From: Escherichia virus TH40
DNA: 64,000 nucleotides
Direction: 5' to 3' (one strand)
Sequence record: MT446411.1
A model generated the notes under the pieces. It saw only the letters and a list, made by a program, of their open reading frames with translations, had not been told where the DNA came from and did no database searches. Shown here in pieces: positions 11,856 to 44,291 of this stretch (the first letter of the stretch is position 1; each line of letters begins with the position of its first letter). Made by a program: the position numbers and the translations under genes.

Positions 11856-12815
11856 TTATTTTGAAAAAGGACGAATTAAATGTTGGTTAGCCTTGAAACG
11901 TTTAACATAGTCTTCGCGACCCAGGGTGTTGTACATATTCACTACTTCCTGGTAATGTTCCCAGGCATACTCACGAAACCATCCAGAAGTAATGGAGGTG
12001 CAGACTTTTTCCAGAGCAATATGGAAGCTCACGGATGGAGAGATACTAAACTCGTTAGGAACCTGCGAACGCTCCAGAGCGAGCACACATGCTTCTTCAT
12101 AAACCCCTGCCAGTTTAATAACATCAGGGAGTGCTTCAAATTTTTCACGCGAGGTCATGACTTCCGAATCATCCTTCATATAGAACTTATATGCAGGCTT
12201 ATCAGCAAGCGCCACGGCCTCGTGGATGGAGTCATGGTCAAGGGTATAGATTGTATCATTAAAGAAAGTTTTCTTGCCCACGTCTAGTTTAGGGTGGCTA
12301 TATGACAGTGTTTCTGCCTGACGTTGTAACATAATTTTCTGCAGTTCATCATTAAGAACAACACCCTTATTACGAAGGTAATTAATATGGCTCATGGTCT
12401 TCAGGAAGAATGGATTGTTCTTCAGGTAACGATGAGACAATTTAATTGCCAGACAAATATCAGGGGTCGCCCAATAGAAACCTGTAAGACGGTCTTTCTT
12501 AATATGATTTTCAGCGTATTTCAAGAGACGATAACTTGAGGTGAAATCTTCATCTTGAAGCTCACCAGTAATTTCTCGTACGTTGGTCAGGGCACGGACA
12601 ATATAAGCTTCAAAATAGGTTTCTTTGCCATTGTACATACATTTAAAAGCTTGGACATCAGGGTTATCCACAGGAACATGAGCACCGAACATACGTGCTT
12701 TAAAGTGGTTCCATGAGCCCTGGTCAGCGATGAAGTCCCAATCAGAGTTTTCAATTTTCTGACTTTCAATCAGACCAGCGTTATGTAATGCACGAGAACC
12801 AATAACTAACATCAT
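11856..12815 (-). CDS. hypothetical protein, possible nucleotidyltransferase-fold
   Basis: ATG pair at 12815/12812 with GAGGA SD; VIGSRALHNAG...SDWDFIA weakly resembles NTase h-G-S / D-x-D motifs. Confidence 0.45.
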   Translation of the reverse strand: MMLVIGSRALHNAGLIESQKIENSDWDFIADQGSWNHFKARMFGAHVPVDNPDVQAFKCMYNGKETYFEAYIVRALTNVREITGELQDEDFTSSYRLLKYAENHIKKDRLTGFYWATPDICLAIKLSHRYLKNNPFFLKTMSHINYLRNKGVVLNDELQKIMLQRQAETLSYSHPKLDVGKKTFFNDTIYTLDHDSIHEAVALADKPAYKFYMKDDSEVMTSREKFEALPDVIKLAGVYEEACVLALERSQVPNEFSISPSVSFHIALEKVCTSITSGWFREYAWEHYQEVVNMYNTLGREDYVKRFKANQHLIRPFSK

Positions 12816-12834: not shown

Positions 12835-13065
12835 TTAAATTTCAGCAGCAGAGATATTAGATTCATCTATCATCTCGGAGGCGGACCCCTTAACGATAGG
12901 AACCAATTTGCCATAGAGGTCTTCATTATAAGGGTCGTTGATACAGTGCGCATCTTCAAAACGAACACCGTAATCAGACTTCTTATAAACGAGACCGTAA
13001 ATCTTTGTAAACTTAGCGCGACTAATTTTTACGGGCTCATCAGCCATTGGAGCATAATACCACAT
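12835..13065 (-). CDS. hypothetical small protein
   Basis: 76-aa ORF. Confidence 0.4.
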   Translation of the reverse strand: MWYYAPMADEPVKISRAKFTKIYGLVYKKSDYGVRFEDAHCINDPYNEDLYGKLVPIVKGSASEMIDESNISAAEI

Positions 13066-13168
13066 AATATTTTCCTCATTAGTTGACGAGATAATGATAC
13101 TACGTTTCTTTAGGCTTGTACACTAAATTTCTGCGCATAAGTCCTCCTATCACATCCTTGTGATTAAA

Positions 13169-13396
13169 TTATTTTCCTAACGAAATACGAGTAGGTTTTT
13201 TACCGAAATATTCTTCATAGGAACCATCTAAACGGCCCGCTTTAGACCGACAGTACGAATCATACTTTTTGTAATAAGTCAACTCTGTATTGTAACGTGG
13301 ATGTCTATCAGCCATAATAATACTTAACGGCCAACCTTTGGCGTAATCACGAAGACCATTTATTTTACGAATATATCTTTTCTTTAATTTTAACAT
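13169..13396 (-). CDS. hypothetical small basic protein
   Basis: 75-aa ORF; ATG overlaps upstream stop. Confidence 0.4.
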   Translation of the reverse strand: MLKLKKRYIRKINGLRDYAKGWPLSIIMADRHPRYNTELTYYKKYDSYCRSKAGRLDGSYEEYFGKKPTRISLGK

Positions 13397-13614
13397 GAGC
13401 TCGGATACCAGATTTTACCATCCGGGTGAGCAACAAAGGTGCGTCCAGCTTCTTCACCATAACAAGAGCTATTCAACCAGTCTTCAAGACGAACTTCACC
13501 ATCATAATCGTCGAGCTCAATACCGAAATCTTGGGCAGAAGCCATATCTTTAACTTTCTTATACAGCGCAGCCAGTTCAAGAGCTGCTTTTTCTAATTCA
13601 TTAATATCAGACAT
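13390..13614 (-). CDS. small protein, C-terminal SS-C tail family
   Basis: 74 aa ending ...WYPSSC; SD overlapping upstream stop. Confidence 0.45.
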   Translation of the reverse strand: MSDINELEKAALELAALYKKVKDMASAQDFGIELDDYDGEVRLEDWLNSSCYGEEAGRTFVAHPDGKIWYPSSC

Positions 13615-13623
13615 TTTTATTCC

Positions 13624-13821
13624 TTAGCATTCGTAAGAGGAGGACACCCAAGAGGTACCACTAATAGTAATACAACCGTTATAAAGCGTGATATGTCGTT
13701 CTAGGTCACGAACACCGTCGATATAGATATCAGCTTCTTCTCGTTCTTCTTTACAAATCTGGATAACGTTTTCAATAGCTGCGGCTGCAGTACGGATTGC
13801 ACAATCTAATTCACGAGACAT
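13624..13821 (-). CDS. small protein, C-terminal W-V-S-S-S-x-E-C tail family
   Basis: 65 aa ending SWVSSSYEC. Confidence 0.45.
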   Translation of the reverse strand: MSRELDCAIRTAAAAIENVIQICKEEREEADIYIDGVRDLERHITLYNGCITISGTSWVSSSYEC

Positions 13822-13830
13822 AATAATTCC

Positions 13831-14112
13831 TTAACATTCAGAAGAGGAGGACACCCAACCACCTTTTTCCAGGTCAGTTGTATAGTCATGTTGGTTAACG
13901 ATAGCGTATTGGGCTTCACCGTAGTTTTCCCAATGAGCAAGGTCAGCTTTCAGGGCGCCAGGAGAATAATAGTCACCGCCCATACCGCGAGCAGGGTATA
14001 TATTAAAATGAGTCTCATATTTGTTTGCAATTTCCTCGGCACGACGAATAGCTTTATGGATATCATTTACTGCGTTGGCCAGTTCTTTATTTTTACTGTA
14101 ATCGTTCATCAT
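13831..14112 (-). CDS. small protein, C-terminal W-V-S-S-S-x-E-C tail family
   Basis: 93 aa ending GWVSSSSEC. Confidence 0.45.
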   Translation of the reverse strand: MMNDYSKNKELANAVNDIHKAIRRAEEIANKYETHFNIYPARGMGGDYYSPGALKADLAHWENYGEAQYAIVNQHDYTTDLEKGGWVSSSSEC

Positions 14113-14121
14113 ACCATTTCC

Positions 14122-14412
14122 TTAACACATCTCAGAAGAGGAGACCCAAGCACCAACGGTAACAACACCATTTTCAACCCGACCGCCATTGGCTTCAATA
14201 TGATGGGTAAACCATTCAGAGCATTCATAACCAACTGGATGATATGTACGGCCGGTGCCGTAATCACCAGTGCTGAATTCGATACCATATTCATCTGCGA
14301 TTTCTTCACAGTGTTTTTCAATTTCAGAGGTCTTATTTAGAAGAGAATAGATAGCTTTTTCTGCAGATTTCTCATCATAATACTTGGGGATAGCAATTTC
14401 AATTTTATTCAT
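14122..14412 (-). CDS. small protein, C-terminal W-V-S-S-S-x-x-C tail family
   Basis: 96 aa ending AWVSSSEMC. Confidence 0.45.
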   Translation of the reverse strand: MNKIEIAIPKYYDEKSAEKAIYSLLNKTSEIEKHCEEIADEYGIEFSTGDYGTGRTYHPVGYECSEWFTHHIEANGGRVENGVVTVGAWVSSSEMC

Positions 14413-14762
14413 GATTTACATTCCTTAATAAAGGTTTCAAGGTCATTACGTTTTGTTTTGTCTAGGAACTTATTATACTCAGCCATTGCTGAAGCATATC
14501 TCTTATATATGGGAGCATTCAAGGCGTTTGTATAACAGATATCATACACAACCGGGATAAAATAGGCCACAACAGCCGGAGCAATTATCATAAAGAAGCC
14601 CATCTCAATAGGCATGACTCCCTCGATTGCAGCCATAACCGTGGTCATTACCAGACCAACCAGACCACCGAGCATGGCAGTGACAATCCCTAATAATAAA
14701 TTGGCACCAATATCATATTCAGCCAATTGATAAACATGTGATGCAAGACTAGGCCGTTCCAT
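14409..14762 (-). CDS. hypothetical membrane protein, C-terminal F-I-K-E-C family
   Basis: ATG at 14762 with AAGGAGG SD; 2-3 TM helices; ends ETFIKECKS. Confidence 0.5.
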   Translation of the reverse strand: MERPSLASHVYQLAEYDIGANLLLGIVTAMLGGLVGLVMTTVMAAIEGVMPIEMGFFMIIAPAVVAYFIPVVYDICYTNALNAPIYKRYASAMAEYNKFLDKTKRNDLETFIKECKS

Positions 14763-15108
14763 TACGAACCTCCTTAATAAATTCTTCGGCACATTTAATT
14801 TTGTGCTCTTCTTGTAGGGAAACACATTTTTGTTCCCACTCTTTAACTCGTCCACGATATCCTTTATTCATATGATTTTGATGCCACACATTTATCAATA
14901 TCATACACAAGACCGTAATAAAAGGAGCGGCGATTATTAGTGCCCAGGCAACTCCAACACTAATGATATCCATATCCCCACAAAGCACCATCATTATAAC
15001 CCCAACAATGCATATAGACAGAGCCCCAAATGGAGGCATAAGGTCTTTATCAATTTTGTCTGCGTATACAAATTTTTCTGGTTTACTTGGTAGATATAGC
15101 GTTCGCAT
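14749..15108 (-). CDS. hypothetical membrane protein, C-terminal F-I-K-E-V family
   Basis: ATG at 15108; TM helices; ends EEFIKEVRNGTA, where the F-I-K-E codons carry the downstream SD. Confidence 0.45.
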   Translation of the reverse strand: MRTLYLPSKPEKFVYADKIDKDLMPPFGALSICIVGVIMMVLCGDMDIISVGVAWALIIAAPFITVLCMILINVWHQNHMNKGYRGRVKEWEQKCVSLQEEHKIKCAEEFIKEVRNGTA

Positions 15109-15655: not shown

Positions 15656-15680
15656 TTAAGGGGGCAAAGCCCCCTTTTAT
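15656..15680. terminator. GC hairpin with flanking A/T runs
   Basis: gggggc-aaa-gccccc then tttt on plus strand, between two minus-strand genes; orientation ambiguous. Confidence 0.35.
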
Positions 15681-16657: not shown

Positions 16658-16737
16658 TTTATTCTCCAGTTTTATTTGGTAACTCAGTATGGAATCATTA
16701 TGCCTTAAAGCAGGGGGCTTGTATACCCCCTTTTGAA
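16658..16737 (-). promoter_or_regulatory. hairpin plus early-promoter cassette
   Basis: minus-strand aaaaGGGGGtatacaaGCCCCC...gcATAATgattccatactgagttaccaaataaaactGGAGaataaaATG. Confidence 0.4.
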
Positions 16738-43419: not shown

Positions 43420-44291
43420 TTGTTTGGGCATTTTTATAATTCGTCTCTGCGTCGCTATATCGTTTTAATGGGCGATTTATTTTCCCATGTACAAGTGGCC
43501 AGAACCAGAGAAGACACTGGACTTAAATATATTAAGGTCCCTATTTCTTATGCTTCAAAAGAAAAATTCATGATGCAGCTTGGAAAATGGACCGCTATTC
43601 AGAATACACCGACTCCTGACATGTCACCACAAGAACGTGCTGCTCAGAAGGCTAAAATCGAGACCGTATTGCCCCGTATGAACCTGCATATGGTTGACTT
43701 GATGTATAACGGGCAATATAAAACGGCTCTCCAGAATCACACACAGGCGCGATTTGCTAATAACGACCCTCGCAAGCAGATATCTCAATATTCTCCTGTA
43801 CCGGTCAAAATGATTTTCGAGCTTGGAATATATACAAGGCATCAAGATGATATGTTCCAGATTATCGAACAAATCATGCCTTACTTCCAACCACATTTTA
43901 ATACAACTATCACCGAACTTTACACGAATGAAATTACATTCGAACGTGATATAAGAATCGTATTGCAGTCAATTGCTATGGATGAGCAAATTGAAGGTGA
44001 TGCAATGACTCGTCGTAGACTCGAATGGTCCATTATGTTCGAAGTTAACGGTTGGTTATATCCACCGGTCAAGGAAGTAGCCGGGGAAATCCGTACTATC
44101 TATCTTGACTTCTTTGCAAATTCCAGAGAGCTTGCACCGGAGGGCAATTTCGAATCTGTTGACTCGGAAGCTGTTCCACGAGACGTCGACCAAGAAGACT
44201 GGCAAGGTGAATCTGTTCAAACATATTCGCAGGATATTCCTGTACCGGTTGACCCAGCGCCGCCAGCCCCAAGAAAAAATAGGGTACCACT

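What the first reader, a model, noticed from the sequence alone, without database searches (positions are those of the whole stretch)
13390..14412. Four tandem small genes with unrelated bodies but a shared C-terminal tail W-V-S-S-S-x-E-C
The consecutive ORFs end ...WYPSSC, ...SWVSSSYEC, ...GWVSSSSEC and ...AWVSSSEMC. In the three longer tails the codons lie in a conserved nucleotide block (tgg gtg tcc tcc tct tc- ga- tgt taa) that also runs into the SD of the next gene. Either the tail is a functional tag (localisation, metal binding or degradation signal), or the block is a conserved intergenic cassette that mediates modular gene shuffling and incidentally encodes the tail.
Basis: seen in the sequence. 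Interest (0 to 1): 0.6.

Follow-up and report, generated by a model that had tools for sequence, protein, structure and literature searches.

The report
Small phage proteins partnered with nucleotidyltransferase
The shared W-V-S-S-S-x-x-C ending marks a large, uncharacterised family of small acidic phage proteins that almost always sits just upstream of a MenT-like nucleotidyltransferase gene, so the finding exposes a conserved two-part phage module of unknown function rather than a tag or a DNA cassette.

Summary
The four minus-strand ORFs and their tails are real. The motif occurs nowhere else in the window's six frames. "Unrelated bodies" is mostly wrong: ORF96, ORF93 and ORF74 are paralogues (phrog_899). 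Only ORF65 (phrog_4882) shares nothing detectable beyond the tail.

An exhaustive profile search found 112 family clusters. In 106 of them the protein ends G-x-W-x-[SAP]-S-S-x-x-C. AlphaFold (pLDDT 95) makes the tail the last beta-strand plus a short turn.

The nucleotide block is a lineage-specific effect. Ser codons are homogenised only in Gaprivervirus/Dhakavirus. Three gene-loss junctions fall inside the block, so it acts as a recombination site without being a dedicated cassette.

The likely mechanism is inferred, not shown: the small proteins are partners (regulators or acceptors) of the enzyme, and the tail is the contact point.

The parts
14122..14412 (-). ORF96, a small acidic protein of the family (YG-x-G-R-T-Y-HP subtype), ending GAWVSSSEMC
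   Evidence: It matches phrog_899 at E 1e-22. Orthologues are 60-97% identical. The family profile was built from it.
13831..14112 (-). ORF93, a family member of the commonest subtype (A-R-G-M-G-G-D-Y-Y-S-P hairpin), ending GGWVSSSSEC
   Evidence: It matches phrog_899 at E 2e-20. The AlphaFold2 model has pLDDT 94.9 and pTM 0.82, with helix 4-31, hairpin 35-49, helix 51-63, strand 84-88 (GGWVS) and a turn at 89-92.
13624..13821 (-). ORF65, a 'tail-only' relative (phrog_4882) ending TSWVSSSYEC, whose body is not detectably homologous to the others
   Evidence: Orthologues occur in 251 phage records. In Marfa the orthologue sits elsewhere in the locus and ends GWQSSSLDC.
13390..13614 (-). ORF74, a divergent family member with two motif copies: internal WLNSSC (13462-13479) and terminal WYPSSC
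   Evidence: It matches phrog_899 at E 6e-10. hhalign to the family gives probability 95%. Both motif copies are conserved in 9 orthologues from 4 or more phage groups.
14110..14148 (-). Tail codons of ORF96, then the stop, the Shine-Dalgarno GGAA and the start of ORF93 (repeat copy 1)
13819..13857 (-). Tail codons of ORF93, then the stop, the Shine-Dalgarno and the start of ORF65 (repeat copy 2). This is one partner in the recombination seen in CJ20 and L053.
13612..13650 (-). Tail codons of ORF65, then the stop, the Shine-Dalgarno and the start of ORF74 (repeat copy 3). The junction left by loss of the fifth family gene lies here.
11856..12815 (-). DUF7277+DUF7275 protein (319 aa counted from MMLVIGS; an upstream ATG at 12866 would give 336 aa). 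It is a pol-beta-type nucleotidyltransferase of the MenT/AbiEii/ANT structural kind and the conserved partner gene of the tail family.

Best explanation
The four genes are tandem, fast-diverging members of one family of small (about 60-100 aa), acidic phage proteins. The family has a long N-terminal helix (...EAE-x-IAD...), a beta-hairpin (aYGMGGTYYP or gDYGSGRTYYP), a variable acidic linker, and an invariant C-terminal G-x-W-x-S-S-S-x-x-C.

The tail is conserved because the protein needs it. It is neither a transplanted tag nor a DNA cassette.

The family is one half of a phage-restricted two-part module. The other half is a MenT/AbiEii-like nucleotidyltransferase encoded just downstream on the same strand (window 11856-12815).

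Most likely mechanism (inferred, not shown): the small proteins bind this enzyme. They would act either like the small helical antitoxin MenA1 acts on MenT1, or as acceptor substrates. The Trp, the two invariant Ser hydroxyls and the terminal Cys would form the part that reaches the enzyme's active site. The variable linker would diversify what each paralogue does.

Separately, in the Gaprivervirus/Dhakavirus lineage the tail, stop and Shine-Dalgarno DNA has been homogenised between neighbouring paralogues. It serves as a short direct repeat for homologous recombination, which deletes whole genes from the array.
For: Shown:
- The family and tail are conserved. There are 112 representatives at E<=1e-3; 106 carry the tail, 99 have W exactly 8 residues from the end, and S(-4), S(-3) and C(0) are invariant.
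- 56 of 112 have only the terminal Cys, which rules out an intramolecular disulfide or Zn site as the general reason for conservation.
- The tail forms a strand plus a turn in a confident model.
- Synteny from the small-protein side: 36 of 36 IMG/VR loci fetched by the YGMGGTY motif alone, with enough downstream DNA, carry the DUF7275 gene within about 1.5 kb downstream on the same strand.
- Synteny from the enzyme side: 75 of 80 loci fetched by the enzyme alone carry 1-5 tail genes upstream.
- After dereplication to 52 loci, these two are the only universal families, at 52/52 and 48/52. The next real gene family is found in 8 loci or fewer; a 27-locus cluster of antisense ORFs inside the enzyme gene is taken as spurious.
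- All 103 tail-bearing ORFs out of 1902 are on the enzyme's strand.
- The association holds in T4-like, rV5-like, Acinetobacter, jumbo and Ralstonia phages.
- The enzyme has an NTase fold and catalytic motifs.
- The enzyme is essentially absent from bacterial genomes: 5 MAG contigs among 185,579 species.
- The motif is duplicated inside some proteins (ORF74 type; P0046, P0047, P0115). This fits a short functional site.
- DNA level: Ser codons are uniform (TCC TCY TCN) across paralogues only in this lineage and mixed elsewhere. Three deletion junctions lie inside the block.

From the literature: MenA1 is a 68-aa helical antitoxin encoded with MenT1, and it acts through its N-terminal helix (PMC10435456, PMC11375011).
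Against: - No physical or predicted complex was obtained, so contact between the tail and the enzyme is pure inference.
- In T4-like phages two or three unrelated small genes separate the array from the enzyme.
- Five enzyme loci lack any tail gene, and actinophage homologues have none.
- Up to five paralogues per enzyme is unusual for an antitoxin.
- The invariant residues could be purely structural (Trp in the core, Ser capping, Cys packing).
- Conserved gene order in related phages overstates independence, although dereplication and the jumbo, rV5-like and Ralstonia examples reduce this concern.
Confidence: 0.6

Rival explanations
1. The tail is only a structural or oligomerisation element. 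Trp would be buried, the Ser residues would cap the last turn, and the terminal Cys would bridge a metal ion or form an intermolecular disulfide. The nucleotidyltransferase would be just a co-inherited neighbour with no direct functional link.
For: The tail is a strand plus a turn inside a confident fold. The family is cysteine-poor, so an intermolecular Cys role is possible. In T4-like phages other genes lie between the array and the enzyme.
Against: The two gene families are the only ones shared across 52 dereplicated, otherwise unrelated loci, always in the same order and on the same strand. Proteins with other bodies keep the same tail next to the same enzyme. The motif is repeated internally in some members, which a fold-specific C-terminal cap would not explain.
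Confidence: 0.2
2. The tail is a portable functional tag (a degradation, localisation or secretion signal) read by host machinery, independent of the protein bodies.
For: It has a strict C-terminal position: 100 of 112 proteins end exactly at Cys. At least one body type (ORF65) shares only the tail.
Against: Three of the four bodies are homologous. After removing the tail, 91 of 103 tail-bearing ORFs still cluster together. The tail is structured in the model rather than a floppy appendage. No resemblance to a known bacterial C-terminal degron or sorting signal was recognised (from my own knowledge, not a search). Internal copies of the motif exist.
Confidence: 0.07
3. The conserved thing is the DNA: a mobile recombination cassette, analogous to the PeSL elements of T4-type phages, that shuffles genes and only incidentally encodes W-V-S-S-S-x-E-C.
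For: Codon identity between the ORF93 and ORF65 tails exceeds what the amino acids require (P about 0.0015). Three array variants have junctions inside the block. Gene order differs between genera.
Against: In Marfa, Mosigvirus, Moon and other genera the same amino-acid tails use mixed Ser and Val codons (TCA/TCT/AGC/AGT/TCG; GTA/GTT/GTC). The amino-acid motif is invariant across 112 clusters from very different phages. The block has no promoter above chance and no stem-loop; fold z-scores are +0.6 to +1.7. The part after the stop codon is simply the usual TAAGGA Shine-Dalgarno.
Confidence: 0.05
4. The small proteins are precursor-like substrates. Their Ser-Ser-(Ser)-x-x-Cys end would be chemically modified by the enzyme, either by O-nucleotidylylation or phosphorylation, possibly followed by elimination and Cys addition (a lanthionine-like ring).
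For: Two hydroxyl residues and a Cys are invariant at fixed spacing. Multiple tandem 'precursor' genes sit beside one enzyme, and the enzyme transfers nucleotidyl or phosphoryl groups to hydroxyls in its relatives. MenT toxins auto-phosphorylate an active-site Thr/Ser (PMC11375011).
Against: No dehydratase, cyclase, protease or exporter is conserved in the loci. The proteins are folded domains rather than leader-plus-core peptides. No precedent was found in the literature searches.
Confidence: 0.08

Closest known systems
MenA1-MenT1 (and the wider MenAT/AbiE) nucleotidyltransferase toxin-antitoxin systems of Mycobacterium tuberculosis and Streptococcus (PMC10435456, PMC11375011, PMC7450476)
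   Different: The enzyme has no sequence-level match to DUF1814/AbiEii (Pfam gives only DUF7277/DUF7275). It carries about 120 extra, extremely conserved C-terminal residues. The module is found in virulent phage genomes and not in bacterial chromosomes. There are one to five partner genes instead of one. The partners have a helix plus beta-sheet fold with an invariant W-x-S-S-S-x-x-C end, which has no counterpart in the two-helix fold described for MenA1 (MenA1's sequence was not examined here). Toxicity and tRNA modification are untested.
PeSL (promoter-early stem-loop) cassettes that mediate modular shuffling in T4-type phages (PMC2839356, PMC4122927)
   Same: Short repeated sequences at gene boundaries in a hyperplastic region of a T4-like genome act as sites of homologous recombination, removing or exchanging whole small genes. 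The junctions map inside the repeat, including between the Shine-Dalgarno and upstream elements.
   Different: PeSLs are non-coding, about 100 bp long, and consist of a strong sigma-70 promoter plus a terminator stem-loop. The block here is about 39 nt, and about 27 nt of it (the tail and stop codons) is coding. It has no promoter and no stem-loop, and it is repeated only because the neighbouring genes are paralogues.
HEPN-MNT (HepT-MntA) type VII toxin-antitoxin systems, GlnE/GlnD and DrrA: pol-beta nucleotidyltransferases that nucleotidylylate a hydroxyl of a partner protein (from my own knowledge of the literature, not checked here)
   Same: These show that this enzyme superfamily can use a protein side-chain hydroxyl as the acceptor. 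That makes the invariant Ser-Ser of the tail a plausible acceptor.
   Different: Those acceptors are Tyr residues in unrelated proteins. No HEPN or other known partner domain is present here, and no modification has been shown.
phrog_899 / phrog_4882 (small proteins) and phrog_2141, Pfam DUF7277 + DUF7275 (enzyme)
   Same: The window's genes are ordinary members by HMM score.
   Different: All of these families are annotated 'unknown function'. No paper in the library mentions them, and their linkage is not recorded in the family annotations returned here.

Membership tests
phrog_899 (small phage proteins, unknown function) | Significant match to the family HMM | tested here: met
   ORF96 scores 1e-22, ORF93 2e-20 and ORF74 6e-10. 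ORF65 does not match and instead hits phrog_4882 at 2e-36.
W-x-S-S-S-x-x-C tail family as defined here | C-terminal W-x-[SAP]-S-S-x(0-3)-C at, or within 1-2 residues of, the end of a protein under 160 aa | tested here: met
   All four window ORFs meet it, as do 106 of 112 profile hits.
W-x-S-S-S-x-x-C tail family as defined here | Located upstream of, and co-directional with, a DUF7277/DUF7275 gene | tested here: met
   In the window the array is at 13390-14412 and the enzyme at 11856-12815, both on the minus strand. The association holds in 36/36 and 75/80 independent loci.
PeSL recombination cassette (PMC2839356) | Strong sigma-70-like early promoter within the element | tested here: not met
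   The promoter scan found 15 sites against 16.4 expected. Only one weak 9/12 match overlaps a block, at 14135-14108.
PeSL recombination cassette (PMC2839356) | Stem-loop or terminator structure | tested here: not met
   RNA folds of the three WVSSS blocks with their flanks give z-scores of +0.61, +1.68 and +0.95 (the ORF74 end, which lacks the block, gives -0.91). No terminator-like site lies at the junctions.
PeSL recombination cassette (PMC2839356) | Recombination between copies creates gene-sized insertions or deletions with junctions inside the element | tested here: met
   CJ20 and L053 lack ORF65 with two different junctions inside the block. The window and TH22 lack the fifth gene.
MenT / AbiEii (DUF1814) nucleotidyltransferase toxins (for the partner enzyme) | Pol-beta NTase fold with motifs hG[GS], [DE]h[DE]h and h[DE]h | tested here: met
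MenT / AbiEii (DUF1814) nucleotidyltransferase toxins (for the partner enzyme) | Sequence membership in DUF1814/AbiEii, including motif IV KLxAxxxR | tested here: not met
   Pfam returns only PF23940 and PF23942, with no AbiEii hit at E<=0.1. PADLOC, NCBIfam and PDB sequence searches are negative. A K-M-S-H-R helix exists, but its spacing differs from KLxAxxxR (my reading of A8).
MenT / AbiEii (DUF1814) nucleotidyltransferase toxins (for the partner enzyme) | Toxicity through nucleotide addition to tRNA 3' ends, neutralised by the cognate antitoxin | not testable with these tools
   This needs expression and tRNA-sequencing experiments.
MenA1-type small antitoxin (for the small proteins) | Small protein encoded with the NTase that has a long helix used for binding | tested here: inconclusive
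Lanthipeptide-type RiPP precursor | Dedicated dehydratase/cyclase (or kinase-lyase-cyclase) and usually a protease or exporter in the locus | tested here: not met
   Only the NTase is conserved with the small genes. Apart from a spurious antisense-ORF cluster (27 loci), no other family occurs in more than 8 of 52 dereplicated loci.

The most novel reading that the evidence does not exclude
The module would be a phage-encoded protein-modification system. In this reading the MenT-like nucleotidyltransferase transfers a nucleotide (or phosphate) onto the invariant Ser-Ser of the W-x-S-S-S-x-x-C end of a diversifying set of small effector proteins. The modification might be followed by reaction with the terminal Cys. 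This would create a previously unknown kind of post-translationally armed host-takeover or counter-defence factor. The converse is also possible: the tail would act as a nucleotide or tRNA-3'-end mimic that plugs and times a phage tRNA-modifying enzyme.
Probability: 0.2. Interest if true: 0.85.

Novelty: new variant of a known kind. Interest (0 to 1): 0.62.

Why it matters
The enzyme family occurs in at least 731 sequenced phages and about 2,000 protein clusters. Its hosts include Escherichia, Klebsiella, Acinetobacter, Aeromonas, Pseudomonas and Vibrio, and many of these phages are therapy candidates. All members are annotated 'hypothetical'.

Linking the enzyme to a partner family with a single invariant eight-residue motif turns two large groups of unknown phage genes into one testable system. 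There is a clear first experiment: co-express the two, then look for binding, a mass shift, and an effect on tRNA or growth.

MenT-type enzymes are known so far as bacterial toxins and abortive-infection effectors. A phage-restricted branch with its own small partners would bear on how phages control or counter translation-targeting immunity.

The array also gives a clean natural example of how protein-level conservation of a short motif creates micro-homology that drives gene loss in tandem paralogue arrays.

Tried and rejected
1. RNA structure. I tested whether the CCUCC-rich tail pairs with the downstream Shine-Dalgarno for translational coupling. The folds are weaker than shuffled controls, so this was rejected.
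2. Known families for the small proteins. Pfam, NCBIfam and PADLOC gave nothing. PHROGs gave only 'unknown function'.
3. The search for homologous proteins on ORF96 and ORF65 gave only close orthologues (6 and 4 hits) because of its word index. The exhaustive profile search was needed.
5. Sequence search of the enzyme against the PDB returned only chance hits.
It was redone with a 16-sequence subset.
It was redone with database homologues.
9. Literature searches for DUF7275, DUF7277, the PHROG and Pfam identifiers, and phage DUF1814-type enzymes returned nothing relevant.
10. The bacterial-genome scan found only 5 MAG contigs, so a typical chromosomal toxin-antitoxin or defence-island reading is unlikely. 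The caveat is that the scan was limited to two peptide patterns.
Full report
**Observation**

The window is a T4-like phage of the Gaprivervirus/Dhakavirus group. It is 92% identical to TH55, UPEC07 and SP18 over 13000-15000. The region lies between homologues of T4 e.2 and e.4/e.6.

Four consecutive minus-strand ORFs are present:
- ORF96 (14122-14412) ends GAWVSSSEMC.
- ORF93 (13831-14112) ends GGWVSSSSEC.
- ORF65 (13624-13821) ends TSWVSSSYEC.
- ORF74 (13390-13614) ends KIWYPSSC.

In the six-frame translation of the whole window, the motif W..SS.{0,3}C occurs at these four ends and once more inside ORF74 (WLNSSC). The only other match, WNISS*C at 43839-43859, contains a stop codon.

ORF93 and ORF65 share TGGGTGTCCTCCTCTT exactly. 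They then differ at three positions before TAAGGAA, the stop codon plus Shine-Dalgarno of the next gene.

Given the window's codon usage (GTG 12% of Val, TCC 12% of Ser), identical codons at V-S-S-S-E would be expected with probability about 0.0015 if they were chosen independently. The sequence-level observation therefore holds and is more than chance.

**Are the bodies unrelated?**

Mostly they are not.
- ORF96, ORF93 and ORF74 all match PHROG family 899 (E 1e-22, 2e-20, 6e-10).
- ORF96 and ORF93 align end to end (BLASTP E 4e-4).
- An alignment of nine ORF74-type proteins matches the family profile over the N-terminal helix and first strand (hhalign probability 95%, E 3e-8).
- ORF65 is the exception. 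It belongs to phrog_4882. Two profile-profile comparisons, the second using orthologues from five genera, align only the 10-11 tail columns.

**The family**

A profile of ORF96, its orthologues, ORF93 and ORF74 was searched against 1.84 billion representative proteins. It found 112 clusters at E<=1e-3. Reading them and counting gives a uniform architecture:
- an N-terminal helix ending ...EAE-x-IAD-x-x-G-x-x-F;
- a hairpin with aYGMGGTYYP or gDYGSGRTYYP;
- a variable linker of about 25 residues with a net charge of about -4;
- then G-x-W-x-[S/A/P]-S-S-x-x-C at the very end.

In numbers, 106 of 112 carry the tail. In 99 the Trp is exactly eight residues from the C-terminus, and in those 99 S(-4) is invariant, S(-3) is Ser in 98, and the terminal Cys is invariant. 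Median length is 88 aa and median pI is 4.5. Half of the proteins (56) have no cysteine other than the last residue, so an intramolecular disulfide or zinc site cannot be the general reason for conservation.

**The neighbour**

While comparing relatives I saw the same arrangement in Mosigvirus, Moonvirus, Marfavirus and the unrelated Ralstonia phage RSP15. One to five tail genes are followed by a protein of about 300-320 aa. In the window this protein is at 11856-12815. It is Pfam DUF7277+DUF7275 and phrog_2141.

I tested the association in both directions with loci chosen through one partner only.
- Forward test: 39 IMG/VR loci were fetched through the peptide YGMGGTY of the small protein. 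All 36 that extend far enough downstream carry the DUF7275 gene within about 1.5 kb on the same strand. The other three end at a contig edge.
- Reverse test: 80 loci were fetched through two peptides of the enzyme. Of these, 73 have one to five upstream same-strand genes that match the family HMM or end in the motif. Two more do so on inspection.
- After dereplicating all loci to 52 (enzymes under 75% identical), the enzyme (52/52) and the small family (48/52 in one BLAST cluster, 49/52 with a strict tail) are the only widely shared real gene families. A cluster of short antisense ORFs inside the enzyme gene recurs in 27 loci and is taken as spurious. The next real families occur in 8 loci or fewer.
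- All 103 tail-bearing ORFs among 1902 ORFs in these loci lie on the enzyme's strand.

The contigs include T4-like genomes, jumbo phages of 355-389 kb and phages of 45-120 kb. rV5-like coliphages (ESCO13) and Acinetobacter phages show the same arrangement.

The arrays also contain proteins with other bodies but the same ending, for example 140-158 aa proteins ending ...ENSDWNSSRC. With the tail removed, 91 of 103 still join one phmmer single-linkage cluster and the rest form eight small clusters. This looks like one superfamily whose bodies drift out of recognition while the tail does not.

**What the neighbour is**

- further nucleotidyltransferases.

The alignment shows the pol-beta catalytic signature: I-G-S at 5-7, invariant D25-x-D27 and invariant E69. 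It also shows very strongly conserved C-terminal motifs (LKMSHRYLKNSPHF, YDHDxIHEAV, VLALERSQIP, KVCTSITSGWFREYAWENY) with no counterpart in MenT1.

There is no sequence match to AbiEii/DUF1814, PADLOC, NCBIfam or any PDB chain. No paper in the library names the DUFs or PHROGs.

The enzyme family is found in 731 phage records and 2061 protein clusters. A pattern scan of one genome per 185,579 bacterial and archaeal species returned only five MAG contigs. The family therefore appears to be phage-restricted. Short actinophage homologues have no tail genes beside them.

**Mechanism**

Shown: there are two co-inherited, co-oriented gene families. One is an apparently catalytically competent nucleotidyltransferase. 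The other is a set of small acidic proteins whose only invariant feature is the Trp / Ser-Ser / terminal-Cys ending.

Inferred: the small proteins are the enzyme's protein partners.

The closest precedent is MenA1-MenT1. There, a 68-aa helical antitoxin encoded with the toxin blocks it and, through its N-terminal helix, induces auto-phosphorylation of an active-site threonine (PMC10435456, PMC11375011). Relatives of this enzyme class transfer nucleotidyl or phosphoryl groups to hydroxyls. The invariant Ser-Ser is therefore a plausible acceptor or pseudo-substrate, and the Trp and the C-terminal Cys/carboxylate are plausible base and phosphate or metal mimics. This last step is speculation.

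I put about 0.85 on a functional link between the two families. I put about 0.35 on the tail being the element that contacts the active site.

Arguments against the link are the multiple paralogues per enzyme, the intervening genes in T4-like phages, the five enzyme loci without partners, and the lack of any complex model.

**The DNA block**

Within Gaprivervirus/Dhakavirus (L050-L056, SP18, the window), the tails of the ORF96, ORF93, ORF65 and ORF75 types mostly start the conserved Ser run with TCC (TCC TCY TCN in the ORF96, ORF93 and ORF65 types, except ORF65 of L056; TCC TCT in the ORF75 type). In Mosigvirus, Marfavirus, Moonvirus and others the orthologous tails use TCA, TCT, TCG, AGC and AGT in no common pattern.

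The nucleotide identity is therefore a lineage-specific homogenisation among neighbours. That is consistent with gene conversion, not with a universal constraint. RNA folding of the block plus the start region shows no structure (z +0.6 to +1.7). No promoter or terminator lies there. What follows the stop codon is the ordinary TAAGGA ribosome-binding site.

The block does act as a recombination substrate.
- SP18, TH55, AnYang, JS98 and others carry five genes: 96, 93, 65, a 75-aa member ending GFWFNSSMSC, and 74/77.
- CJ20 lacks ORF65, and its ORF93 now ends with ORF65's last codons (TAC GAA TGC).
- L053 lacks ORF65 with a different junction. It keeps TCT GAA TGT, followed by the ORF65/75-type GGAAATAAAATG.
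- The window and TH22 lack the 75-aa gene. The window's junction, TGC TAA GGAATAAAAATGTCTG, equals the ORF75/ORF74 junction of L051.

Gene order also differs between genera: ORF65's orthologue lies after two other genes in Marfa. This resembles the way PeSL cassettes work in T4-type phages (PMC2839356). However, the defining promoter and stem-loop are absent, and most of the repeat (about 27 of 39 nt) is coding sequence.

**Verdict**

The tail is real and functional, but it is the hallmark of a protein family and not a tag on unrelated proteins. The nucleotide block is real and recombinogenic, but it is secondary.

What makes the finding worth more than its face value is the partner gene. Together the two families form a widespread, phage-restricted, uncharacterised module of small W-S-S-C proteins plus a MenT-like nucleotidyltransferase.

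I classify it as a new variant of a known kind (nucleotidyltransferase plus small partner). A minority reading has the tail chemically modified, and that would be new biochemistry.

Noticed in passing
window 13462-13479 (minus strand), inside ORF74: There is a second, internal copy of the motif (D-W-L-N-S-S-C, followed by Y-G-E-E). It is conserved in all nine ORF74-type orthologues examined, from T4-like, rV5-like and metagenomic phages. Some distant family members carry two or three copies (P0046, P0047, P0077, P0115).
   Followed up: partly
L130 3130-3828 (Streptomyces phage Blueeyedbeauty) and L131 3101-3388 (Gordonia phage WilliamBoone): Short actinophage homologues of the enzyme (251-259 aa) have no W-S-S-C genes upstream. 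Instead they are followed by small proteins that share another motif (...GYY[DS]SWD..WDG...VEV.P.E..V..Y), which may be a different partner family.
   Followed up: no
L009 4303-5141, L130 372-1031, L011 1786-2712 and 7971-8750: RNA-repair-type genes lie near the module in several unrelated phages. These are RNA ligase in RSP15 and Blueeyedbeauty, a T4 Pnk-like P-loop protein in 5 dereplicated loci, and a metallophosphatase in 6. This hints at a tRNA or RNA-end context, but the numbers are small.
   Followed up: partly
window 13390-13396; L003 (phage TH22): The stop codon of ORF74 overlaps the start of the next gene (ATGTTAA). That gene is a 75-aa phrog_7065 protein at 13169-13396, and it is absent from phage TH22.
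   Followed up: no
window 15657-15679 and 16712-16731: G+C-rich hairpins followed by T runs (AAGGGGGCAAAGCCCCCTT, AGGGGGCTTGTATACCCCCT) sit in the intergenic gaps between the e.6-like genes. Terminator-like sites are about three times more frequent here than in shuffled controls (9 versus 3.2). These could be PeSL-like elements.
   Followed up: no
L086, L095, L097, L099, L102, L103, L106, L111, L112 (upstream of the enzyme): Some HMM-positive family members of about 105-200 aa (ORF calls, some possibly over-extended upstream) end in ...YDYGWN[IV] or ...YDYGWDL instead of the S-S-x-C tail. They always co-occur with canonical tail genes in the same array. Acinetobacter phage AM101 has a 58-aa member ending ...VWHNSNWSNSES, with no Cys.
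   Followed up: no
L015 6631-6795 and 26 other dereplicated loci, antisense to the enzyme gene: An open frame of about 75 aa on the opposite strand of the DUF7275 gene recurs in 27 of 52 loci at the same relative position. It is probably a by-product of the strongly conserved sense-strand codons rather than a gene.
   Followed up: no
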